A program made the translations under genes and the position numbers. Shown piece by piece: positions 4,521-14,988 of a stretch of 64,000 nt of DNA (the stretch's first letter is position 1; each line of letters starts with the position of its first letter). The stretch is from the IMG/VR virus record IMGVR_UViG_3300046733_000629. One strand, written 5' to 3'. Under the pieces are notes generated by a model. The model saw nothing but the letters and a program-made list of their open reading frames with translations, searched no databases and was not told where the DNA came from. This DNA comes from a virus (taxonomy: Duplodnaviria > Caudoviricetes).

Positions 4521-6539
4521 TTAACGGAAGTTACTGTTTCTTTCCTTTAAGGCTTTTTCTAATACTGCATCCTCTTCGGCTTTTATTGTCTTTTGCAACG
4601 CCGCAATTTGTTTTTCCAATAAAGACATTTCTGTATTGATCAAACGTTTTTCTCTAGGATGTTTAGTTATTTTAACCGATTCTTGTCGATCTGTCAACCT
4701 ATCTTTGAGTATAGCTAGTTCCTTACTCTTAGGTATATCCTTTGGAACTGCTAATACTGGTACAGTAGAAGGTACGTTTTCACTGAGGTTCATAGGATTG
4801 CTAGCTGATCTTCTTAAAATGTCATCTTGATATACGTCAGATGTTTTATTAGGTAATGGAGCTGTTCCTAGTTCTGTTTCAGTTATTGCTTCATTAAAGA
4901 AGTTAGTTGATTTATCTTTAATTGTTTCTGAATTGTCACTAAACCAATTTGAAACAGTTTCAATTTTTGTTGATAAACTATTTAAATTTAATGTAACAGC
5001 GTTTTGTGCTCTCAAGAACATTTTGCTTGCATCGTTCATTGCTTGTACTGTACTACCTGATGCTGTTAATTTTGCTCGGGTTTTCTTATTAAGTGCTTCA
5101 ATCTCATCAGCACTTAACTTTGCATATTTTCCAAAGTTCTTTTTGATTAATACACCGCTTGATTGTAACTCTGCAATTGCTTGAAGTATACTATTATCTA
5201 CTGCACCAGCATTTGCCATTTTAGTCATATCCATATTAGTAAAACTTTGCAATATGTAGTTACCAGCTTCTTCTCCTCGCAGTTCTCCTGTTTGAATCAT
5301 TCTTTCAATATTATTAAAAAAGTCTTCTCCCATTACTTTTGTAAATGCTGCTCTTGTTTCAGGAGTTAGTGTAGATTCAAATTCAAAGTTTTCAATATTA
5401 CCTGTATACTGAAACAGTTTCTCACCCAATGCTGTTGCTAGCTCTTGTATCCTGCCTCCACCGGCACCTTGGTCTGATATTAATGATAATTGTTGTAATA
5501 TGTGTTTTGCTGCACTAGCTTGTTCATTTTTACCATTGTCTCTAAGACCTTGTAAACCAGCCATTTCAAATGTTCCACTAATAGCAGCCATTTGTCTTTG
5601 TAATGCATCACTTCTATTTAAAGAAGTTAAACTTGCCATTGCTGTACTTTCTACAACTAAGTCTTGGAAACCTTTATCTAACTTAGTTCCCATACCAGCA
5701 AGCGTCATATCTATTGCGCCTGTTAAACGTTGTGTTTCTATATAAGCCGCATACTGATTCATTAGTTCAGTATTTGAAAGTCCTAAATCACCTAACTTAT
5801 CTGTAGCGTCACTAAGTTTCTTAAACATACTTAGAAATTGTTTAGAACCGCCTGATACATCTGATCCAAGTGCTGTCATAGTGCCACCAAAATTTGTTAT
5901 AGTATCTGAAAATGCATTATAGGTTATACCTGCTTTCATACTGTCATCATACAAATTATCAAATTCAGATGCACTAGAATAAAATATAGCACCACTGTCA
6001 ATCATTTTCTTTTGTACTTCTGCAAACTGTTCAAACTTGGCTGCATTCCAACCTGCCCATGCTAGTGCAACATCAGTTACTGTACTCATAGTACCGCCAA
6101 ACTTAGTAAAAAATTCACCTAGTCCTTTGGATTTTTTCATTAGAGACTGTAAGCCACCGCCGCCAGCTGGTCCTTTAAGTTTACCTGCTAAACTATCAAC
6201 AGCACCTACCATACTTGATAATGGCTTTTCTGCATCACCAAAGAATGTTGCCGCTTTGTTTATTGCGGATGCTGTACCTGTTGTTCTATCTAAAAATGTT
6301 TTTTGATTTTGTTCTGTTGATTCACTGTTTGCATCAGCTGCTTCTACTACTGCTTTTACAGATGCTATTACTTCTTCGTCTACTTCTTTAAGTTCTTTAA
6401 CACCGTCCAGCATTGTATCTGAAATAATATTAGTACGTTGTAACTGCTTTGCCATAGCAAGCAAAGTTGATTCACTTGCCCACGCCGGAAGTTCAATGGT
6501 AGTACCATCTGGTAAAGGTATATTATTTTTTTTGGCCAT
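4521..6539 (-). CDS. Tape-measure-like helical virion protein, copy 1
   Basis: 672 aa, Ala/Gly/Met-rich and predicted helical; N-terminal LPAWASESTL motif shared with the neighbour; position in the structural module. Confidence 0.5.
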   Translation of the reverse strand: MAKKNNIPLPDGTTIELPAWASESTLLAMAKQLQRTNIISDTMLDGVKELKEVDEEVIASVKAVVEAADANSESTEQNQKTFLDRTTGTASAINKAATFFGDAEKPLSSMVGAVDSLAGKLKGPAGGGGLQSLMKKSKGLGEFFTKFGGTMSTVTDVALAWAGWNAAKFEQFAEVQKKMIDSGAIFYSSASEFDNLYDDSMKAGITYNAFSDTITNFGGTMTALGSDVSGGSKQFLSMFKKLSDATDKLGDLGLSNTELMNQYAAYIETQRLTGAIDMTLAGMGTKLDKGFQDLVVESTAMASLTSLNRSDALQRQMAAISGTFEMAGLQGLRDNGKNEQASAAKHILQQLSLISDQGAGGGRIQELATALGEKLFQYTGNIENFEFESTLTPETRAAFTKVMGEDFFNNIERMIQTGELRGEEAGNYILQSFTNMDMTKMANAGAVDNSILQAIAELQSSGVLIKKNFGKYAKLSADEIEALNKKTRAKLTASGSTVQAMNDASKMFLRAQNAVTLNLNSLSTKIETVSNWFSDNSETIKDKSTNFFNEAITETELGTAPLPNKTSDVYQDDILRRSASNPMNLSENVPSTVPVLAVPKDIPKSKELAILKDRLTDRQESVKITKHPREKRLINTEMSLLEKQIAALQKTIKAEEDAVLEKALKERNSNFR

Positions 6540-9398: not shown

Positions 9399-9622
9399 TA
9401 GCTTCTCGTCAACCCGTAGAAATCCAAGAACTAGTTCAACGATACGAAAAACAGTTAGAGAAATCTGAAAGCAGTTTCTTAGACATAGTAATACGCAGTG
9501 AAGGTGCAGTAAGTTATCAAGATATTATGATGATGCCTGTTCCGGCTATAAAATTATTAGTTGAAAGAATGAATCACAGAGTTGAAGAAATCAACAAATC
9601 TAATCGCGGTCCTCGCCGGTAA
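9395..9622 (+). CDS. Small baseplate/tail assembly protein (gp51-like by position)
   Basis: 75 aa, coupled to the gp26-like gene; G.VSYQDIMMMP..IKLLVE resembles tail-chaperone C-terminal segments. Confidence 0.45.
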   Translation: MIASRQPVEIQELVQRYEKQLEKSESSFLDIVIRSEGAVSYQDIMMMPVPAIKLLVERMNHRVEEINKSNRGPRR

Positions 9623-10049
9623 TTAATTTATAATAAGTATCAGGCCAGTTGTCGTAATACTTTGTAGTTTTTAAGTACTTACGTTTTTCCATTATATCTC
9701 CACGCAATTGAATAAACACACAATCTGTAAAGTTCTTTACAAAGTGTCCACTATTTCTACTACTCGTAAAAAATAATAAATCAGGATTGGCAACCATTGC
9801 CTCCTCGCAAAATTTTTCTACGGGTTCCATATCATTTATATCACCTAACCAGGCAATACCAATCTCATATGTAGATTTGTCAAAAGTGTTTAGTTGTGAT
9901 AAACTATCACGTGCATCTATAAATTGTATTTTTTGCTGTAGTCTAGCCTTACGTGCAAACGGACATACTGGTAAGCCAGAGTCCTGTTTAACCTCAATAG
10001 AGTTTTGGCTCCATTTAAGGAATTCTTGTTCAAAGTCAGAAAAGTTCAT
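9600..10049 (-). CDS. Hypothetical protein, DUF1415-like
   Basis: W....IE.....LPVCPFARKA motif recalls the DUF1415 N-terminus. Confidence 0.5.
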   Translation of the reverse strand: MNFSDFEQEFLKWSQNSIEVKQDSGLPVCPFARKARLQQKIQFIDARDSLSQLNTFDKSTYEIGIAWLGDINDMEPVEKFCEEAMVANPDLLFFTSSRNSGHFVKNFTDCVFIQLRGDIMEKRKYLKTTKYYDNWPDTYYKLITGEDRD

Positions 10050-10074
10050 TATATTGATATCATTCTTGTTTATT

Positions 10075-10680
10075 GTTCTTGATGTCTTACGACATCATCA
10101 TTATCACAAAGCTAACGCTTTGTTCAATGCATATTGCTTACGCTTAATTAAAGTATCAAACTGTATTAGATAAAAAGCAATTTTTTAGATCTTAATTTAT
10201 ATTAATATTTATCTTGTTCCTTGGCAAGATATTTTATTCACACTTAGCCTACTACGGGCCAAGTGTAAAATGAGTTCTTGGCATAGAACAGCACCCACAT
10301 TACCATAGTAAACCTAGTTTAACACCTAGGAAGGGCGGTTACGCTGTACCCTTATTACATACTGCCTTTCTAACGCAGAAACATCCGGAGCCATGGTATC
10401 GACTTTTGGACTATCCTCAAGTTACGAGCGTTCGTAGAGCTTGATCTTTTTGATTTGTCAAATCAGTGTATTGACATTTGCAGGCACACCAGTATCTAGT
10501 CACGTGAATTCGTAACCTCAAGGTGAGTCGACCAACGCCGACCAAACGGAGCCTTGTTGCCTGTGTTAGTTTTGTATTAGCCTATATTTGCGAGATTTGG
10601 TATCTGTGTATTTTGGTTTGTATTAGTAATTATCTGATGCTTTAATTATTAGCTGATAACGCAATTAAAACCTTAATTCT
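10075..10680 (-). ncRNA. Candidate large structured non-coding RNA, family not recognised
   Basis: No credible ORF; core is GC-richer than flanks; at least 10 stems; G.U pairs and a GNRA (GUAA) loop work only on the minus strand; own sigma70 promoter at 10685-10713. Confidence 0.65.
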
Positions 10681-10684
10681 TGTT

Positions 10685-10713
10685 ATACTAACAAGAAAAA
10701 TATGCGTTGTCAA
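10685..10713 (-). promoter_or_regulatory. Sigma70-type promoter driving the candidate ncRNA
   Basis: TTGACA-17 nt-TAGTAT; the -35 box contains the TGA stop of the GIY-YIG gene; the -10 box lies within a perfect 9-bp inverted repeat (10677-10697). Confidence 0.75.
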
Positions 10714-11153
10714 CCTTTTTTCAGATGTTCTGTAAGAATTTTTGAACTGCCAACCCTTACATTAATAATGCCGTTATAGTATTCATCGGTTTCTAATACT
10801 CTACGGTCAAATTGTTCTTTAGCTTCTAAATAGCTTGCAACACCTCTACTAGGACAAAAATGTAATATTTCTCTAGTAAATTTATCTGCTCCAAGTGTTA
10901 GTACGTCAGCATTTAAATGATCTGACGAACCCCAATAAGTCTGCCAATCACTTTCTTTAGTGCCACGTCTTTTATTCTTTTTACCCTTTAACGGTGGTTT
11001 AGTTGTTTTGAACTTTGCTAGTTTCTTACCAATGTACTTACGATCATTAGTAAGGTTAGTTATTAAGTATACAAATGCTTCTACGCCGTCTGGTATCTCA
11101 GTGATTATTTTATTTTTGTATGTCCAAGGGACTGTCTTCTTTGTACCACTCAT
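10710..11153 (-). CDS. GIY-YIG family endonuclease (catalytic domain only)
   Basis: FVYLITNLTNDRKYIGKK, WQTYWGSS, YLEAKEQ (catalytic Glu) and YYNG (Asn); 147 aa with no C-terminal DNA-binding domain. Confidence 0.85.
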   Translation of the reverse strand: MSGTKKTVPWTYKNKIITEIPDGVEAFVYLITNLTNDRKYIGKKLAKFKTTKPPLKGKKNKRRGTKESDWQTYWGSSDHLNADVLTLGADKFTREILHFCPSRGVASYLEAKEQFDRRVLETDEYYNGIINVRVGSSKILTEHLKKG

Positions 11154-11277
11154 CTATTAATCTTTTAATTCTGTCTAATGCGTCCATTCCTATAGATGCT
11201 TGTTCTATTGTGAAGGGAGCATGCTTTAACACATACTCTTTATCTTCTAATACAAATTCTTCTTGATCTTTATGCAT
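11110..11277 (-). CDS. Small hypothetical protein (55 aa), not in the ORF track
   Basis: MHKDQEEFVLEDKEYVLKHAPFTIEQASIGMDALDRIKRLIDEWYKEDSPLDIQK; start overlaps the gp46 stop, end overlaps the GIY-YIG start. Confidence 0.45.
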   Translation of the reverse strand: MHKDQEEFVLEDKEYVLKHAPFTIEQASIGMDALDRIKRLIDEWYKEDSPLDIQK

Positions 11278-13045
11278 CAATTACTTCAATCTCAGTATTA
11301 AAAGTAGTGAAGCCATTTTCTTTTGTAACTTGTAGAACGCTGTTAACACGACCCACTAATTCATCTCGATGAGATATAAGTAAAATATTTTTTCCACGAT
11401 CACGTTCCATTTTCTTTAATACACTTAATGCACTTTCAACACCAATTGTATCCATACCGCTATCAACAAGTTCGTCAATGCATACTAAGTTAATAGGATG
11501 ATTCATGCTTTCAAATACATCACGGAAACTCCAACTAAGACCTAGTATTAATCTGTTACGTTCACCTCTTGACAAATTATCAAAGTCTAAGTCTTGTCCA
11601 AGTTGTGTAATAGTTACAGTTAAGTCACTTTGGAATTGTACTTCATGTGGTAAACCTAAACGTGTAATATAATATTCTAAACGTGTGTTTAAGAATTGTA
11701 AATTTTGTTCAATAATCTTTTTACGAATAAAACTATCTTTGTTTGTAAGTAGTTTCAATAAAAAGTCTTGATGTTCTTTTAATTCAGTAAGTCTATTAAC
11801 TTCTGTCCAACTTACTTCTTGTAACCCAGTATTTTTTAATGCTTCAATTTGTTCTGTATATGGGTCTAATTCCTTTTCAGTATTCTCAAGTAATATTTTA
11901 TTTTCTTTAATTTTATTTTGATGTTCGTATGCTTCGTTCAAACTATTATATTCAATACGTGGTGCAATGCCAATATCGCCAATTTCTTCAACAGCAAGTT
12001 TGTATTCTTCCATTGCTGATGTATCATCGTCAATATGTTTTTGAGAATCATTAACTAGTTCTGTTTTTTGTTCTACTATTTTATCATGTTGCTCATCATG
12101 TATTTCTTGTCCACATGCATAGCATTTATGTTCTAAAGTAGAATCTAAATCTGTTTGTGCCTTGTTTAAACGTTTTTGTTCACGTTCAATACTACTAGTA
12201 AGTCTTGCTATTTCAGCAGTTAATGTATCTCTTTGATTTTTCTTTTCATTGAATTGTGCAAACTCAGCATGTGATTTAATTTCAGCGTCAATATCAATAT
12301 GTTCTAATGCATTAACTTCACTAGCATATTCATTTATTTTTTCAATCTGTTTACTAGCCCAATGAGTTTGTCTACGTTCTAAATCTTTAATACTACTACC
12401 AATACGTTCATTGGCATCTTCAATGCCTTTTATTCGAAATGTTTCTTCAGTAATTCTATCTTTAGTATTCTTAGTTAAGTCTTTTAATATATTTGCTTTT
12501 TGACTAAGTTTTGTAATACCTAACAGTTGTTCAATCATCTCACGTTGATCATTTGCTCGCATACTTAAGAATGGTTCTGTGTATGTGTTTAATGCACAAA
12601 TATGCTTAAACATTGTATGACTCATACCAAGTACATCTTCAATAACTGCTTGGCTTTGTCTACCTTCGCCTTGCATTTCGTCGGTGATGCCTTCGTTGTT
12701 ATCAACATCGTTTACTAAGAACTTAAATATGTTAGGCTTACGTCCACGTTCAATTCTGTAACTTACACCGTCTTTTTCAAAGTCGCAAGTTACCATCATA
12801 TTCTTATTATTAGTTTTATTAACTAGATTATCTTTTTTAATATTGTAAAGTGCATTGCCATACAATGCATAACTTAATGCATTAATAATAGTAGTCTTAC
12901 CAGTACCATTACGAGAACCATCTCCTCCTAAGTCAATGTTATTACCTAATACAAGTGTTAAGCCGTGTACGTCAAAGTGTACAGCCTGTGTGACATTACC
13001 CACACTCATAAAATTCTTTACGGTGATATTTTTAATTGTTAGCAT
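11270..13045 (-). CDS. Recombination nuclease ATPase subunit (T4 gp46 / Rad50 / SbcC-like)
   Basis: Walker A RNGTGKTT, Zn-hook CYACG inside a coiled coil, signature LSRGE, Walker B IDELVD, H-loop ISHR. Confidence 0.95.
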   Translation of the reverse strand: MLTIKNITVKNFMSVGNVTQAVHFDVHGLTLVLGNNIDLGGDGSRNGTGKTTIINALSYALYGNALYNIKKDNLVNKTNNKNMMVTCDFEKDGVSYRIERGRKPNIFKFLVNDVDNNEGITDEMQGEGRQSQAVIEDVLGMSHTMFKHICALNTYTEPFLSMRANDQREMIEQLLGITKLSQKANILKDLTKNTKDRITEETFRIKGIEDANERIGSSIKDLERRQTHWASKQIEKINEYASEVNALEHIDIDAEIKSHAEFAQFNEKKNQRDTLTAEIARLTSSIEREQKRLNKAQTDLDSTLEHKCYACGQEIHDEQHDKIVEQKTELVNDSQKHIDDDTSAMEEYKLAVEEIGDIGIAPRIEYNSLNEAYEHQNKIKENKILLENTEKELDPYTEQIEALKNTGLQEVSWTEVNRLTELKEHQDFLLKLLTNKDSFIRKKIIEQNLQFLNTRLEYYITRLGLPHEVQFQSDLTVTITQLGQDLDFDNLSRGERNRLILGLSWSFRDVFESMNHPINLVCIDELVDSGMDTIGVESALSVLKKMERDRGKNILLISHRDELVGRVNSVLQVTKENGFTTFNTEIEVIDA

Positions 13046-13047
13046 GT

Positions 13048-14070
13048 TTACGATGTTAATCCTGTATAAATGTCTACTAATAGTTCTTTTTTGATAGTAT
13101 CGCTTTGTACTGAATCTAGTTGTGATAATACAATACTGTCTACATTTTCAACTTGTATATCAACTCCTTTATTCCAGTCTTGTGTATGCTCTTCTTTCTT
13201 ACTTGGCATAAGAGCAATCTCACGTAAGTCATATTGTTTAGCAAATGTTTCTTTAATAAAGTTTGCTTCTTCATATGTTATACCTACGTCAAGTGTTACA
13301 CGACAATAAGTTTTGTCTGACAAAAACTTGTCTGGGTCGTCAATAAGTTTACTTAATGTAAGTGTACGATATTTAGGTGCATCAGGCCATTTTAGATATT
13401 CGATAGTACCATCCCAATCTAAAATAGTACAACCACGTTCATCATCCCATGCATCAGCATAGTTATGTGGAAAACAATTACCTGGATAAATTACATTACC
13501 GTGTTGTTGTCTTTTATGAAAGTGTCCACTAAACACCATTTCGGGTCCTGATAAATCTTCTGCTTTTAGTCCACCATGATCTGGCATCTGTACCATTGCA
13601 TTCATATAGAAACTAGGTAGTTCAAAATGACCAAACATATATTTACATTTAATATCTCTCAACGACTTCCATTCGTCATCACATAGCCATGGAATAAATG
13701 CAACACCGTCTTCAACAAAACGCTGATCATTTATCATTCTAATCTTAGGAAAATCTTCAATCATAGACAAACTATGAATCTCACGTTTTTCTCTATAATA
13801 GAGATCGTGATTTCCTGTAATCATAATAACTTCATCGAAGTTATCATTTAGTCTACGTAAATTACTTGTTGTATAGTTTAATGTACTAACATTAATACTT
13901 GCACGATTATGATGCCAGTCACCTAAGAAGAAACATTTTTTAATACCTCTATTATGTGCCTCTGATATCATCCAATCAATAAAGTCTTCACAATCTTGAT
14001 TGTGATGCCGACTATTATTCTTCATGCCAAAGTGAATGTCAGTAAAAATTATTGCTTTGTCAAAAAACAT
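13048..14070 (-). CDS. Recombination nuclease subunit (T4 gp47 / Mre11 / SbcD-like)
   Basis: Metallophosphoesterase motifs FTDIHFG, LGDWHH, GNHD, GHFE, SGHFH. Confidence 0.95.
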   Translation of the reverse strand: MFFDKAIIFTDIHFGMKNNSRHHNQDCEDFIDWMISEAHNRGIKKCFFLGDWHHNRASINVSTLNYTTSNLRRLNDNFDEVIMITGNHDLYYREKREIHSLSMIEDFPKIRMINDQRFVEDGVAFIPWLCDDEWKSLRDIKCKYMFGHFELPSFYMNAMVQMPDHGGLKAEDLSGPEMVFSGHFHKRQQHGNVIYPGNCFPHNYADAWDDERGCTILDWDGTIEYLKWPDAPKYRTLTLSKLIDDPDKFLSDKTYCRVTLDVGITYEEANFIKETFAKQYDLREIALMPSKKEEHTQDWNKGVDIQVENVDSIVLSQLDSVQSDTIKKELLVDIYTGLTS

Positions 14071-14988
14071 TTATTCTCCAGTTTCTTCTGCTTCAGGTTC
14101 GCTATCTGTAATATATACTGTTTTCTTTAATGTTGGATTCTTTTCTTTGAGAGCTTGTTCACGTTCTTCGTGTGCTTTCCACTCTGCATTAAATGTTCTA
14201 GTATTACTTGGATTCAAACCTTCTTCTTCTAATAAGTCATCTCTAATGTTCTGACTACGTTTTTCTAAATTAAGAACTCTTGTAAAACTATTGTTAATAG
14301 CGGCAGTATAATATGCAAATGGATTTTGTGATTTAAATTCATTAAACTGTAATCCAATTTGTGCCAACTGTAGTAATGCTTGTCCACGCATTTCGTCTAC
14401 ATAAGTGTATCCACGCCAGTTACCACGCATACTGTATCTCTCACATAGTTTGATATACATACGAGCTAGTCTATCGTTTGTTTTTCCATGGTCTACACTA
14501 AAATGACCGTTATCTCTTCCACCTTCCCAATGACTACGAGCTACTTCTTCTAGATCGCCTTCAATGTACGCATAATGCTTAAATGGTGGGAAGTTACATT
14601 TAGCATGTAAATCTGCTTCTGTTTTTGGTTTGTTTTTTCTGTTTTCTTGTGGGACATGATCAAATGTCATTACTCTAACCACAATATCATCGTCTTGAAT
14701 AGTGTCTATATCTACTGCGAAATCTGCTGCCCTGGGTTTAGTTTTTTTACCTGTTAAACCTTTTTCCCATCTTTTAACTTCAGCTTCGTGTGCTAGTTTC
14801 TGTAATCTTTTTGCTCTATTCTGTTTAGCTTCTGCAGTCACTTCCTTAGTTATTGCATCTAAGCCTTCAACAATAATATCATAATGAGTATACTGATCAT
14901 CACGTGCCCAGCAATAAGACATCTTACTACTGTGTATCTCTCTTAACAAATCTTTGTTTGTTAAGTAAAATTGTTTTGGTGTTTTCAT
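14071..14988 (-). CDS. Late-transcription sigma factor (T4 gp55-like)
   Basis: YLTNKDLL N-terminus; NWRGYTYVDEM and FNEFKSQNPFAYYT..INNSF..L..EK motifs; adjacent to gp47/gp46. Confidence 0.87.
   Translation of the reverse strand: MKTPKQFYLTNKDLLREIHSSKMSYCWARDDQYTHYDIIVEGLDAITKEVTAEAKQNRAKRLQKLAHEAEVKRWEKGLTGKKTKPRAADFAVDIDTIQDDDIVVRVMTFDHVPQENRKNKPKTEADLHAKCNFPPFKHYAYIEGDLEEVARSHWEGGRDNGHFSVDHGKTNDRLARMYIKLCERYSMRGNWRGYTYVDEMRGQALLQLAQIGLQFNEFKSQNPFAYYTAAINNSFTRVLNLEKRSQNIRDDLLEEEGLNPSNTRTFNAEWKAHEEREQALKEKNPTLKKTVYITDSEPEAEETGE

What the first reader, a model, noticed from the sequence alone, without database searches (positions are those of the whole stretch)
10075..11153. Catalytic-domain-only GIY-YIG nuclease physically fused to the ncRNA promoter: possible nuclease-RNA system
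SEEN: the 147-aa GIY-YIG keeps its catalytic residues (YIG, Glu in YLEAKEQ, Asn in YYNG) but has no C-terminal DNA-recognition domain, and its TGA stop is part of the -35 box of the RNA promoter. KNOWN: Seg/I-TevI homing enzymes need an extra DNA-binding domain; HNH-HEARO, IscB-omegaRNA and TnpB-reRNA pair a compact nuclease with an adjacent structured RNA. INFERENCE: the RNA could supply targeting or regulation, which would be an RNA-associated GIY-YIG system. The alternative is a structure-specific recombination or host-DNA nuclease (T4 EndoII-like, consistent with its place in the gp46/47 operon) whose neighbour is coincidental.
Basis: inference. Interest (0 to 1): 0.72.

Follow-up and report, generated by a model that had tools for sequence, protein, structure and literature searches.

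The report
Small nuclease gene plus twin-box RNA
A small DNA-cutting enzyme gene of an uncultured marine T4-like phage is followed directly by a real, large folded RNA of an uncatalogued family; the two travel as a tight pair in hundreds of related phages, but nothing shows that the RNA guides the enzyme.

Summary
ORF 10710-11153 (-) is a 147-aa, single-domain Seg-type GIY-YIG nuclease. Its TGA stop lies inside a TTGACA -35 hexamer. A roughly 0.4-0.5 kb structured RNA follows; it shows covariation and has no Rfam match.

The RNA-guide reading is not supported:
- 21 of 77 close GIY-YIG orthologues lack the RNA, as does the complete Melnitz genome, yet they keep every conserved residue.
- The only variable RNA segments are two identical 7-9 nt "twin boxes", and no complement to them was found.

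The pairing is still tighter than plain synteny:
- All 182 RNA loci fetched by RNA motifs alone have a small nuclease gene upstream: GIY-YIG adjacent in 174, GIY-YIG plus one ORF in 2, and an unrelated PD-(D/E)XK nuclease in 6.
- The nuclease-RNA junction almost never takes insertions (2 of 184), against 40 of 172 at the gp46-nuclease junction.

The nuclease is old and under strong purifying selection, so it is not a recently spreading homing gene. The stop/-35 overlap is specific to this window's subclade (13 of 167 distinct junctions).

Best reading: a hard-wired gene pair, an RNA-independent DNA nuclease plus a stand-alone RNA of unknown role. This scan has reported the same RNA family before on other DNA ("twin-box RNA").

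The parts
13048..14070 (-). gp47 / SbcD-Mre11-like nuclease subunit
   Evidence: Pfam Metallophos, phrog_100 E 9.5e-72
11270..13045 (-). gp46 / SbcC-Rad50-like ATPase
   Evidence: Pfam AAA_23 and SMC_N, phrog_77 E 1.3e-99
11110..11280 (-). Small 56-aa ORF between gp46 and the nuclease gene, overlapping both. No family match.
   Evidence: Homologues lie in the same place in subclade loci, including those with the PD-(D/E)XK nuclease.
10710..11153 (-). 147-aa single-domain Seg-type GIY-YIG nuclease (P0001)
10685..10713 (-). Sigma-70-type promoter: TTGACA, 17 nt, TG-n-TAGTAT. The -35 hexamer contains the nuclease TGA stop (10712-10710).
   Evidence: Conserved in 13 distinct subclade junctions.
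10585..10678 (-). 5' leader of the RNA, specific to this subclade. It is absent where the RNA core starts right after the nuclease stop.
   Evidence: Alignments A1 and A5
10409..10551 (-). RNA 5' domain: hairpin 10527-10543, then the CACC...GGTG helix enclosing a hairpin (10487-10527), then further stems
   Evidence: Compensatory changes seen in A1 and A2. Profile match.
10219..10366 (-). RNA 3' domain, holding the twin boxes and the long hairpin
   Evidence: Covariance model R1: 65 bits, E 2.6e-11. Pair counts on A4.
10277..10283 (-). Twin box 1 (UGCCAAG)
10240..10266 (-). Long hairpin between the boxes (10 bp stem), the best-supported helix
   Evidence: Helix 5: 94% of cells paired, 6 of 9 pairs changed on both sides
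10220..10226 (-). Twin box 2 (UGCCAAG), 57 nt after box 1
10080..10146 (-). Conserved tail before the next gene: GCGUAAGC motif (10135-10146) and two hairpins (10106-10123 and 10080-10099). A counterpart (GAGCGAUAGCGAAAAC plus a hairpin) exists in the other RNA subfamilies.
   Evidence: Alignments A1 and A2. The weak CRISPR-DR33 look-alike is below threshold.
9600..10049 (-). Next gene, 149 aa, function unknown. It follows the RNA only in this subclade; the downstream gene differs elsewhere.

Best explanation
This is a hard-wired two-gene pair, not an RNA-guided enzyme. The 147-aa protein is an old, vertically inherited, single-copy DNA nuclease under strong constraint. It consists only of a Seg/I-TevI-type GIY-YIG catalytic domain and sits at the end of the gp55-gp47-gp46 recombination block. 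I infer that it acts on DNA without RNA, as a structure-specific or host-DNA nuclease. Behind it lies a separate gene for a roughly 0.4-0.5 kb, multi-helix, pseudoknotted 'twin-box' RNA of an uncatalogued family. In this window's subclade the RNA is driven by its own strong promoter, whose -35 box overlaps the nuclease stop codon. In most other phages the RNA core starts within a few tens of bases of the stop. There the RNA start, or its promoter, must overlap the end of the nuclease gene, or the two are co-transcribed. I infer that this shared boundary keeps the pair together and shuts out insertions. The RNA most likely works in trans as a stable structured RNA. Its two identical boxes probably present the same short sequence twice to one partner, either a protein or another RNA. 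Shown here: the anatomy, the conservation, the covariation and the linkage statistics. Inferred: the nuclease substrate, the transcription start and the RNA's role.
For: The nuclease does not need the RNA. 21 of 77 close orthologues lack it, and so does the whole Melnitz genome. Eight RNA-less contigs of 34-99 kb have none either. No residue separates RNA-linked from RNA-less proteins. More distant family members in cyanophages sit near nrdB without the RNA. The nuclease is old and constrained. Median amino-acid identity to the window is 79%, against 56% for gp46 and 53% for gp47. Identity at four-fold sites is only 0.39, against 0.51 and 0.50. There is one copy per large contig. The RNA is real: G+C island, 85.5% of cells paired against 31-45% for slid controls, and 15 pairs changed on both sides; G-U pairs fix the minus strand as the sense strand. 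The RNA has its own promoter here, conserved in 13 distinct junctions. The junction is tight: the nuclease stop to RNA distance has a median of 46 nt and reaches 400 nt or more in only 2 of 184 loci, against 40 of 172 for gp46 to nuclease. A PD-(D/E)XK nuclease that PHROGs annotates as a junction resolvase replaces the GIY-YIG in situ. It does so in close relatives of this window (gp46 80% identical), which keep the full RNA.
Against: The RNA was never seen without a small nuclease gene in front of it (0 of 182). When the GIY-YIG is missing, the replacement is again a nuclease, in at least two distant lineages. Pure layout does not predict that; it hints at a functional tie. A gp49/EndoVII homologue exists in a close relative, so the nuclease is not needed as the only resolvase. 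The function of the twin boxes is unexplained.
Confidence: 0.5

Rival explanations
1. The nuclease and the RNA are functional partners. Either the RNA is a cis-acting 3' element or an inhibitor that controls a potentially self-damaging nuclease, or it forms a ribonucleoprotein with whichever small nuclease is encoded upstream. In the boldest form the twin boxes act as short guides.
For: RNA to nuclease is 182 of 182, including 6 loci with a nuclease of a different fold. GIY-YIG and PD-(D/E)XK are mutually exclusive and single-copy in five large contigs. The RNA core starts at or within tens of bases of the nuclease stop, as reRNA does in TnpB. The twin boxes are the fast-evolving part of an otherwise conserved scaffold. 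The protein has an invariant basic insert, KFKTTKPPLKGKKNKRRG.
Against: 27% of close orthologues and the complete Melnitz genome have the nuclease without the RNA, with no compensating protein change. In this window the RNA has its own promoter and a 130-nt leader, so it is not simply the nuclease 3' UTR. The boxes are only 7-9 nt, and no complement was found within 4-10 kb. Two unrelated folds would both have to bind the same RNA. No binding or activity data exist.
Confidence: 0.3
2. The nucleases are free-standing homing endonucleases (intronless homing) parked next to their target, which is the highly conserved RNA gene. GIY-YIG and PD-(D/E)XK are competing selfish occupants of one site. 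The fast-evolving boxes are cleavage-site polymorphisms that give immunity.
For: The protein belongs to the Seg family (Pfam SegE_GIY-YIG), and its nearest fold is I-TevI. Different nuclease families occupy the same intergenic slot in related phages. Homing endonucleases often sit beside or inside conserved RNA genes; T4 SegB in the tRNA cluster is an example (own knowledge).
Against: No empty site was seen in 182 RNA loci. There is no DNA-binding domain. Synonymous sites are as saturated as in the flanking genes while the protein is far better conserved, which means long purifying selection and not recent spread. PD-(D/E)XK divergence tracks gp46 divergence. There is one copy per genome fragment. 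Orthologues at other loci have no RNA.
Confidence: 0.12

Closest known systems
Free-standing Seg endonucleases of T4 (SegE; Pfam PF19835) and the I-TevI catalytic domain
   Same: Same catalytic domain family. The full-length profile matches at E 1.3e-33. The best structural match is I-TevI at Z 7.8. All the GIY-YIG motifs are present.
   Different: There is no DNA-binding domain. It is single-copy, strongly conserved and vertically inherited, with no empty sites. That is not the behaviour of a selfish homing gene.
T4 endonuclease II (DenA), a 136-144 aa single-domain GIY-YIG host-DNA nuclease
   Same: Same size and same single-domain architecture, with fold Z 5.7. In Melnitz the family member lies just after nrdB, as denA does in T4, and in Syn9 it lies about 2 kb downstream of nrdB.
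   Different: No detectable sequence relationship (hhalign E 0.65). These phages are not known to modify their DNA, so self/non-self discrimination would need another basis.
OMEGA systems (TnpB-reRNA, IscB-omegaRNA/HEARO)
   Same: A compact nuclease gene abuts a large structured RNA, and the RNA starts at the end of the nuclease ORF in most loci.
   Different: The nuclease fold is different. There is no 12-20 nt guide and no transposon context. The nuclease often occurs without the RNA, and the RNA also follows an unrelated nuclease. Nothing matches HEARO or any other Rfam family.
GOLLD and ROOL (large ornate non-coding RNAs carried by phages)
   Same: A large, multi-helix, pseudoknotted, phage-borne RNA of unknown function with strong covariation.
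   Different: No homology to them. It is smaller. It has the twin boxes and an obligate position behind a small nuclease gene.
'Twin-box structured RNA' of earlier reports in this scan (e1-3440727 and others; unpublished AI notes)
   Same: The same family. It has two always-identical, fast-evolving boxes, lies behind a small GIY-YIG gene in uncultured aquatic T4-like phages, and is absent from Rfam. I re-derived these points independently before reading the notes.
   Different: This window belongs to a subclade with an extra 130-nt leader and a promoter fused to the nuclease stop codon.

Membership tests
GIY-YIG nuclease superfamily | Sequence motifs: GIY/YIG strands, catalytic Arg, Glu and Asn | tested here: met
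   FVY29, Y40-I-G42, R62/R63, E110 and N127 are invariant in 23 orthologues. Pfam SegE_GIY-YIG scores 116 bits against a cut-off of 25.
GIY-YIG nuclease superfamily | GIY-YIG alpha/beta fold | tested here: met
   AF2 model pLDDT 88. The top four VIA matches are all GIY-YIG domains, Z 7.8 to 5.3. The Foldseek top hit is 1mk0.
Seg / I-TevI-type homing endonucleases | Catalytic domain joined to a sequence-specific DNA-binding domain | tested here: not met
   The protein is 147 aa and the profile covers residues 10-130. There is no second domain.
Seg / I-TevI-type homing endonucleases | Patchy presence, with homologous sites that lack the gene (targets for homing) | tested here: not met
   0 of 182 RNA loci lack an upstream nuclease.
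Seg / I-TevI-type homing endonucleases | Signs of horizontal spread: the gene is more similar than its flanks at silent sites | tested here: not met
   Four-fold-site identity is 0.39 for the nuclease gene, against 0.51 and 0.50 for gp46 and gp47.
Seg / I-TevI-type homing endonucleases | Site-specific double-strand cleavage of a cognate allele | not testable with these tools
   Needs a biochemical assay or mixed infections.
T4 EndoII (DenA) | Sequence homology to DenA | tested here: not met
   hhalign of A3 against T4 DenA gives E 0.65.
T4 EndoII (DenA) | Structural likeness and single-domain size | tested here: inconclusive
   2wsh Z 5.7, rmsd 3.5, 86 residues aligned. This is shared with all GIY-YIG domains.
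RNA-guided nuclease systems (OMEGA-like) | Structured RNA encoded next to, or overlapping, the nuclease gene | tested here: met
   The median distance from stop codon to RNA is 46 nt over 184 loci.
RNA-guided nuclease systems (OMEGA-like) | A variable guide segment of useful length attached to a conserved scaffold | tested here: not met
   The only variable parts are two identical 7-9 nt boxes. No complement lies in the loci.
RNA-guided nuclease systems (OMEGA-like) | The nuclease always co-occurs with its RNA | tested here: not met
   21 of 77 close orthologues and the complete Melnitz genome lack the RNA.
RNA-guided nuclease systems (OMEGA-like) | Protein-RNA binding and RNA-dependent cleavage | not testable with these tools
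   No RNA-protein complex predictor or assay was available.
Any Rfam family (including HEARO, GOLLD, ROOL, tmRNA, RNase P, group I intron, Polynucleobacter-1) | Covariance-model match | tested here: not met
   No hit at gathering score in the window. No relevant hit at E up to 10 in 9950-10800. None at E up to 1 in 8 related loci. ARAGORN finds no tmRNA.
Large ornate phage non-coding RNAs (a kind, not a homology family) | Over 300 nt, several covariation-supported helices including a pseudoknot, phage-borne, non-coding | tested here: met
   30 pairs tested, 15 with changes on both sides, and the pseudoknot helix is 93% paired. ORF-free. Found in more than 230 viral contigs.

The most novel reading that the evidence does not exclude
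The twin-box RNA is the functional core of a new kind of nuclease-RNA module. It recruits, regulates or programmes whichever small nuclease is encoded immediately upstream (GIY-YIG or PD-(D/E)XK), and its two identical fast-evolving boxes specify the nucleic acid to be bound or cut. That would make it the first RNA-dependent system built on GIY-YIG or PD-(D/E)XK nucleases.
Probability: 0.08. Interest if true: 0.9.

Novelty: new member of a known kind. Interest (0 to 1): 0.55.

Why it matters
The RNA is a large, clearly structured, uncatalogued family that is common in uncultured marine T4-like phages. Some carrying contigs are 165-330 kb and are estimated to be only about half complete. Large phage RNAs of unknown function such as GOLLD and ROOL are an open problem, and this family adds two unusual clues. 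First, two short boxes are always identical to each other yet differ between close relatives. Second, the RNA always sits behind a small nuclease gene, and that nuclease can be of either of two unrelated folds. If the tie is functional, it would be a new way of coupling an RNA to a nuclease. If it is not, the pair is still a clean example of gene linkage enforced by overlapping signals. The protein itself is among the best-conserved in these phages, is mislabelled 'NAD synthetase' in many records, and deserves an assay.

Tried and rejected
- **Known RNA family:** Rfam at gathering and permissive thresholds found nothing relevant in the window or in 8 related loci.
- **tmRNA:** ARAGORN found none in the window or in 27 loci. 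The Melnitz two-piece tmRNA described in PMC9004378 lies at another locus.
- **RNase P or group I intron:** a resemblance by eye was not borne out.
- **Partner for the twin boxes:**
  - No reverse complement lies within the loci.
  - Two recurrent weak internal candidates do not covary with the box variants.
  - Mutual information points only from box to box.
- **Conserved sigma-70 promoter inside the nuclease gene's 3' end in the other RNA subfamilies:** no consistent site was found.
- **DenA orthology:** rejected by hhalign.
- **The GIY-YIG as the phage's only junction resolvase:** weakened, because a close relative carries an EndoVII homologue.
- **Recent horizontal spread of the nuclease gene:** rejected by four-fold-site identity.
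- **RNA relocated elsewhere in RNA-less contigs:** not found with model R1 in 8 contigs or in Melnitz. The contigs are only 10-27% complete, so absence from those genomes is not proven.
- **RNAalifold on MAFFT alignments of all subfamilies:** the structures were inconsistent. I therefore tested hand-derived helices on the 3' domain only. Helix 4 of that set is poorly aligned (50% paired).
- **Complex prediction:** not used, because it does not handle protein-RNA pairs.

Full report
**What is in the window**

The genes around the finding lie on the minus strand, in this order:
- gp55-like late sigma factor (14071-14988)
- gp47/SbcD (13048-14070)
- gp46/SbcC (11270-13045)
- a 56-aa ORF (11110-11280)
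- the flagged ORF (10710-11153)
- a 660-nt ORF-poor gap (10050-10709)
- a 149-aa ORF of unknown function (9600-10049)

The DNA is about 32% G+C and T4-like. The only cultured phages with detectable DNA similarity are the Methylophilales phages Melnitz (Kyanoviridae), and only within the flagged ORF. No whole genome is held for this window.

**The protein**

- The ORF gives 147 aa.
- It matches Pfam SegE_GIY-YIG over the whole 123-position profile (E 1.3e-33). It also matches phrog_447, whose own profile is 148 aa long.
- In 23 orthologues the GIY-YIG hallmarks are invariant: FVY29, Y40-I-G42, R62/R63, E110 and N127. So is a basic insert, KFKTTKPPLKGKKNKRRG.
- An AlphaFold2 model has pLDDT 88.
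- Its four best structural matches among 48,161 representative chains are all GIY-YIG domains: I-TevI (Z 7.8), PD-T4-3 (6.4), T4 EndoII (5.7) and UvrC (5.3). Foldseek also ranks I-TevI first.

This is normal for the family, however. tblastn finds it in 782 phage records, mostly cyanophages and Felix-O1-like phages, often mislabelled 'NAD synthetase'.

**The promoter**

TTGACA (10713-10708), 17 nt, then TG-n-TAGTAT lies on the minus strand, and the TGA stop (10712-10710) sits inside the -35 hexamer. Among 167 distinct nuclease-end sequences, 13 have this layout: an invariant -35, a TAnnnT -10 and variable spacers. All 13 are in this window's subclade. It is a credible promoter, but it is lineage-specific. 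The subclade carries a roughly 130-nt leader between the stop codon and the RNA core that other phages lack.

**The RNA is real**

- Positions 10205-10584 form a G+C island (44-46%).
- The region is more conserved than the neighbouring genes, with compensatory changes. One example is TCGGC..GTCGA / TCGAG..CTCGA / TAGAG..CTCTA.
- The G-U pairs fit only the minus strand.
- A profile built from 19 diverse copies finds the element right after the nuclease gene in 54 of 80 loci that were fetched through the protein alone.
- On a 47-sequence alignment of the 3' domain, five hand-derived helices (30 pairs, one a pseudoknot) are 85.5% paired, against 31-45% when partners are slid. Fifteen pairs change on both sides.
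- Rfam has no match at any threshold tried, in the window or in eight related loci. ARAGORN finds no tmRNA.

**Twin boxes**

Two 7-9 nt segments lie 57-60 nt apart and flank the best-supported hairpin (10240-10266). They are identical within each RNA but differ between RNAs:
- UGCCAAG in this window (10283-10277 and 10226-10220)
- UGUCAAG and UGUGAAG in close relatives
- ACAUGAAG, ACAUGAUG, ACAUAAUG, GCAUGAAG and AGAUAAUG elsewhere

Their variable positions share more mutual information with each other (0.67 and 0.74) than with any other column. No complement lies in the loci. Two weak internal candidates do not covary with the boxes. Their role is unexplained.

**Does the nuclease need the RNA? 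No.**

- Of the 80 closest orthologue loci, 77 have enough downstream DNA to judge. 56 carry the RNA: 54 by profile, plus L052 and L054 by covariance model. 21 do not.
- The complete Melnitz genome (protein 77% identical) has no match to model R1.
- Eight RNA-less contigs of 34-99 kb have none either, although they are fragments.
- No alignment column outside the termini separates RNA-linked from RNA-less proteins.
- In Melnitz and Syn9 the homologue lies downstream of nrdB, directly in Melnitz and about 2 kb away in Syn9. In T4 the analogous single-domain GIY-YIG, DenA, lies directly after nrdB. DenA is not detectably related in sequence.

**Does the RNA need a nuclease gene? Apparently yes.**

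I fetched RNA loci with two RNA-only motifs. 182 of them have enough upstream DNA to judge:
- 174 have the GIY-YIG directly upstream.
- 2 have the GIY-YIG plus one extra ORF.
- 6 have no GIY-YIG. Instead a PD-(D/E)XK nuclease (Pfam PDDEXK_15, E 1e-23 to 1e-25; phrog_244, annotated as a junction resolvase) ends about 20 nt before the RNA.

Three further points came out:
- L222 and L244 are close relatives of this window (gp46 80% identical). They keep the small upstream ORF, the full RNA and the downstream gene; only the nuclease gene is exchanged.
- PD-(D/E)XK divergence tracks gp46 divergence, so both nuclease types are old residents of this slot.
- In five large contigs the two nucleases are mutually exclusive and single-copy.

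**Junction statistics**

The gap between gp46 and the nuclease gene is 400 nt or more in 40 of 172 loci and reaches 2.4 kb. The gap between the nuclease stop and the RNA is that large in only 2 of 184 loci, with a median of 46 nt. The genes downstream of the RNA vary. The nuclease-RNA boundary is therefore specifically protected.

**Selfish or housekeeping?**

Median protein identity to the window is 79% for the nuclease, against 56% for gp46 and 53% for gp47. At four-fold degenerate sites the nuclease gene is no more similar than its flanks: 0.39 against 0.51 and 0.50. That pattern means long purifying selection, not recent spread. Together with the single copy, the missing DNA-binding domain and the absence of empty sites, it argues against a classical homing endonuclease.

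**Interpretation**

The most economical reading has four parts:
- The nuclease is an RNA-independent DNA nuclease attached to the recombination block. A PD-(D/E)XK nuclease can stand in for it.
- The RNA is a separate gene.
- The two are welded together by overlapping expression signals. In this window that is literally a promoter built over the stop codon.
- The RNA acts in trans, presenting its two identical boxes to one partner.

I give this reading 0.5. A true functional tie (regulation, inhibition or an RNP) gets 0.3, because the 182-of-182 rule and the nuclease-for-nuclease exchange are not predicted by layout alone. Within that 0.3, a guide-like role gets at most about 0.08. Homing next to a conserved RNA gene gets 0.12.

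**Limits**

- No protein-RNA modelling was available.
- Only the 3' domain was tested quantitatively for structure.
- Most contigs are fragments.
- This scan has reported the same RNA family several times on other DNA. I reached the family, the boxes and the linkage before reading those notes, and then used one of them as a lead.

Noticed in passing
window 10677-10697: A 9-bp inverted repeat (TTCTTGTTA/TAACAAGAA) is centred on the -10 box of the RNA promoter. Similar repeats appear in most, but not all, of the 13 subclade junction variants, so it may be an operator.
   Followed up: partly
window 10080-10146; c-type loci such as L039 about 4870-4920: After the RNA comes a conserved tail: GCGUAAGC or GAGCGAUAGCGAAAAC, followed by one or two hairpins. 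It is kept across RNA subfamilies although the downstream gene differs. It may be the true 3' end of the RNA module or a separate element.
   Followed up: no
L012, L079, L177 (about 100 nt after box 2): Some family members carry a third copy of the box sequence about 100 nt downstream of box 2.
   Followed up: no
L040, L060, L018 (b-type RNAs); c-type RNAs: The sequence just upstream of each box is also repeated (AUUGUGGC twice in b-type; CUGUGAC and UCUGAC in c-type). Both copies can pair with the same hairpin loop, which suggests two alternative pseudoknots, that is, a possible two-state switch.
   Followed up: partly
L241:7140-8072 (-), L266:1378-2310 (-): In the distant PD-(D/E)XK lineage, a 310-aa protein with a weak, below-cut-off radical-SAM match is inserted between gp46 and the nuclease gene.
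   Followed up: no
L251:4553-5374 (-), L268: These are the only two loci with an ORF between the GIY-YIG and the RNA. It is 273 aa and matches no Pfam or PHROG family. The contig behind L251 is 328 kb.
   Followed up: no
phage records: Members of this GIY-YIG family (phrog_447) are widely annotated 'NAD synthetase' in cyanophage and Felix-O1-like genomes. This looks like a propagated mis-annotation.
   Followed up: partly
c-type RNAs, start of the 3' domain (AUGUCGACGUAGG): A near-invariant palindrome, GUCGAC, sits in the c/d-type RNAs. It could mediate RNA-RNA dimerisation. It is absent from this window's subfamily.
   Followed up: no
window 11110-11280: A small 56-aa ORF overlaps both the gp46 end and the nuclease start. 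It is conserved in the subclade whichever nuclease follows.
   Followed up: partly
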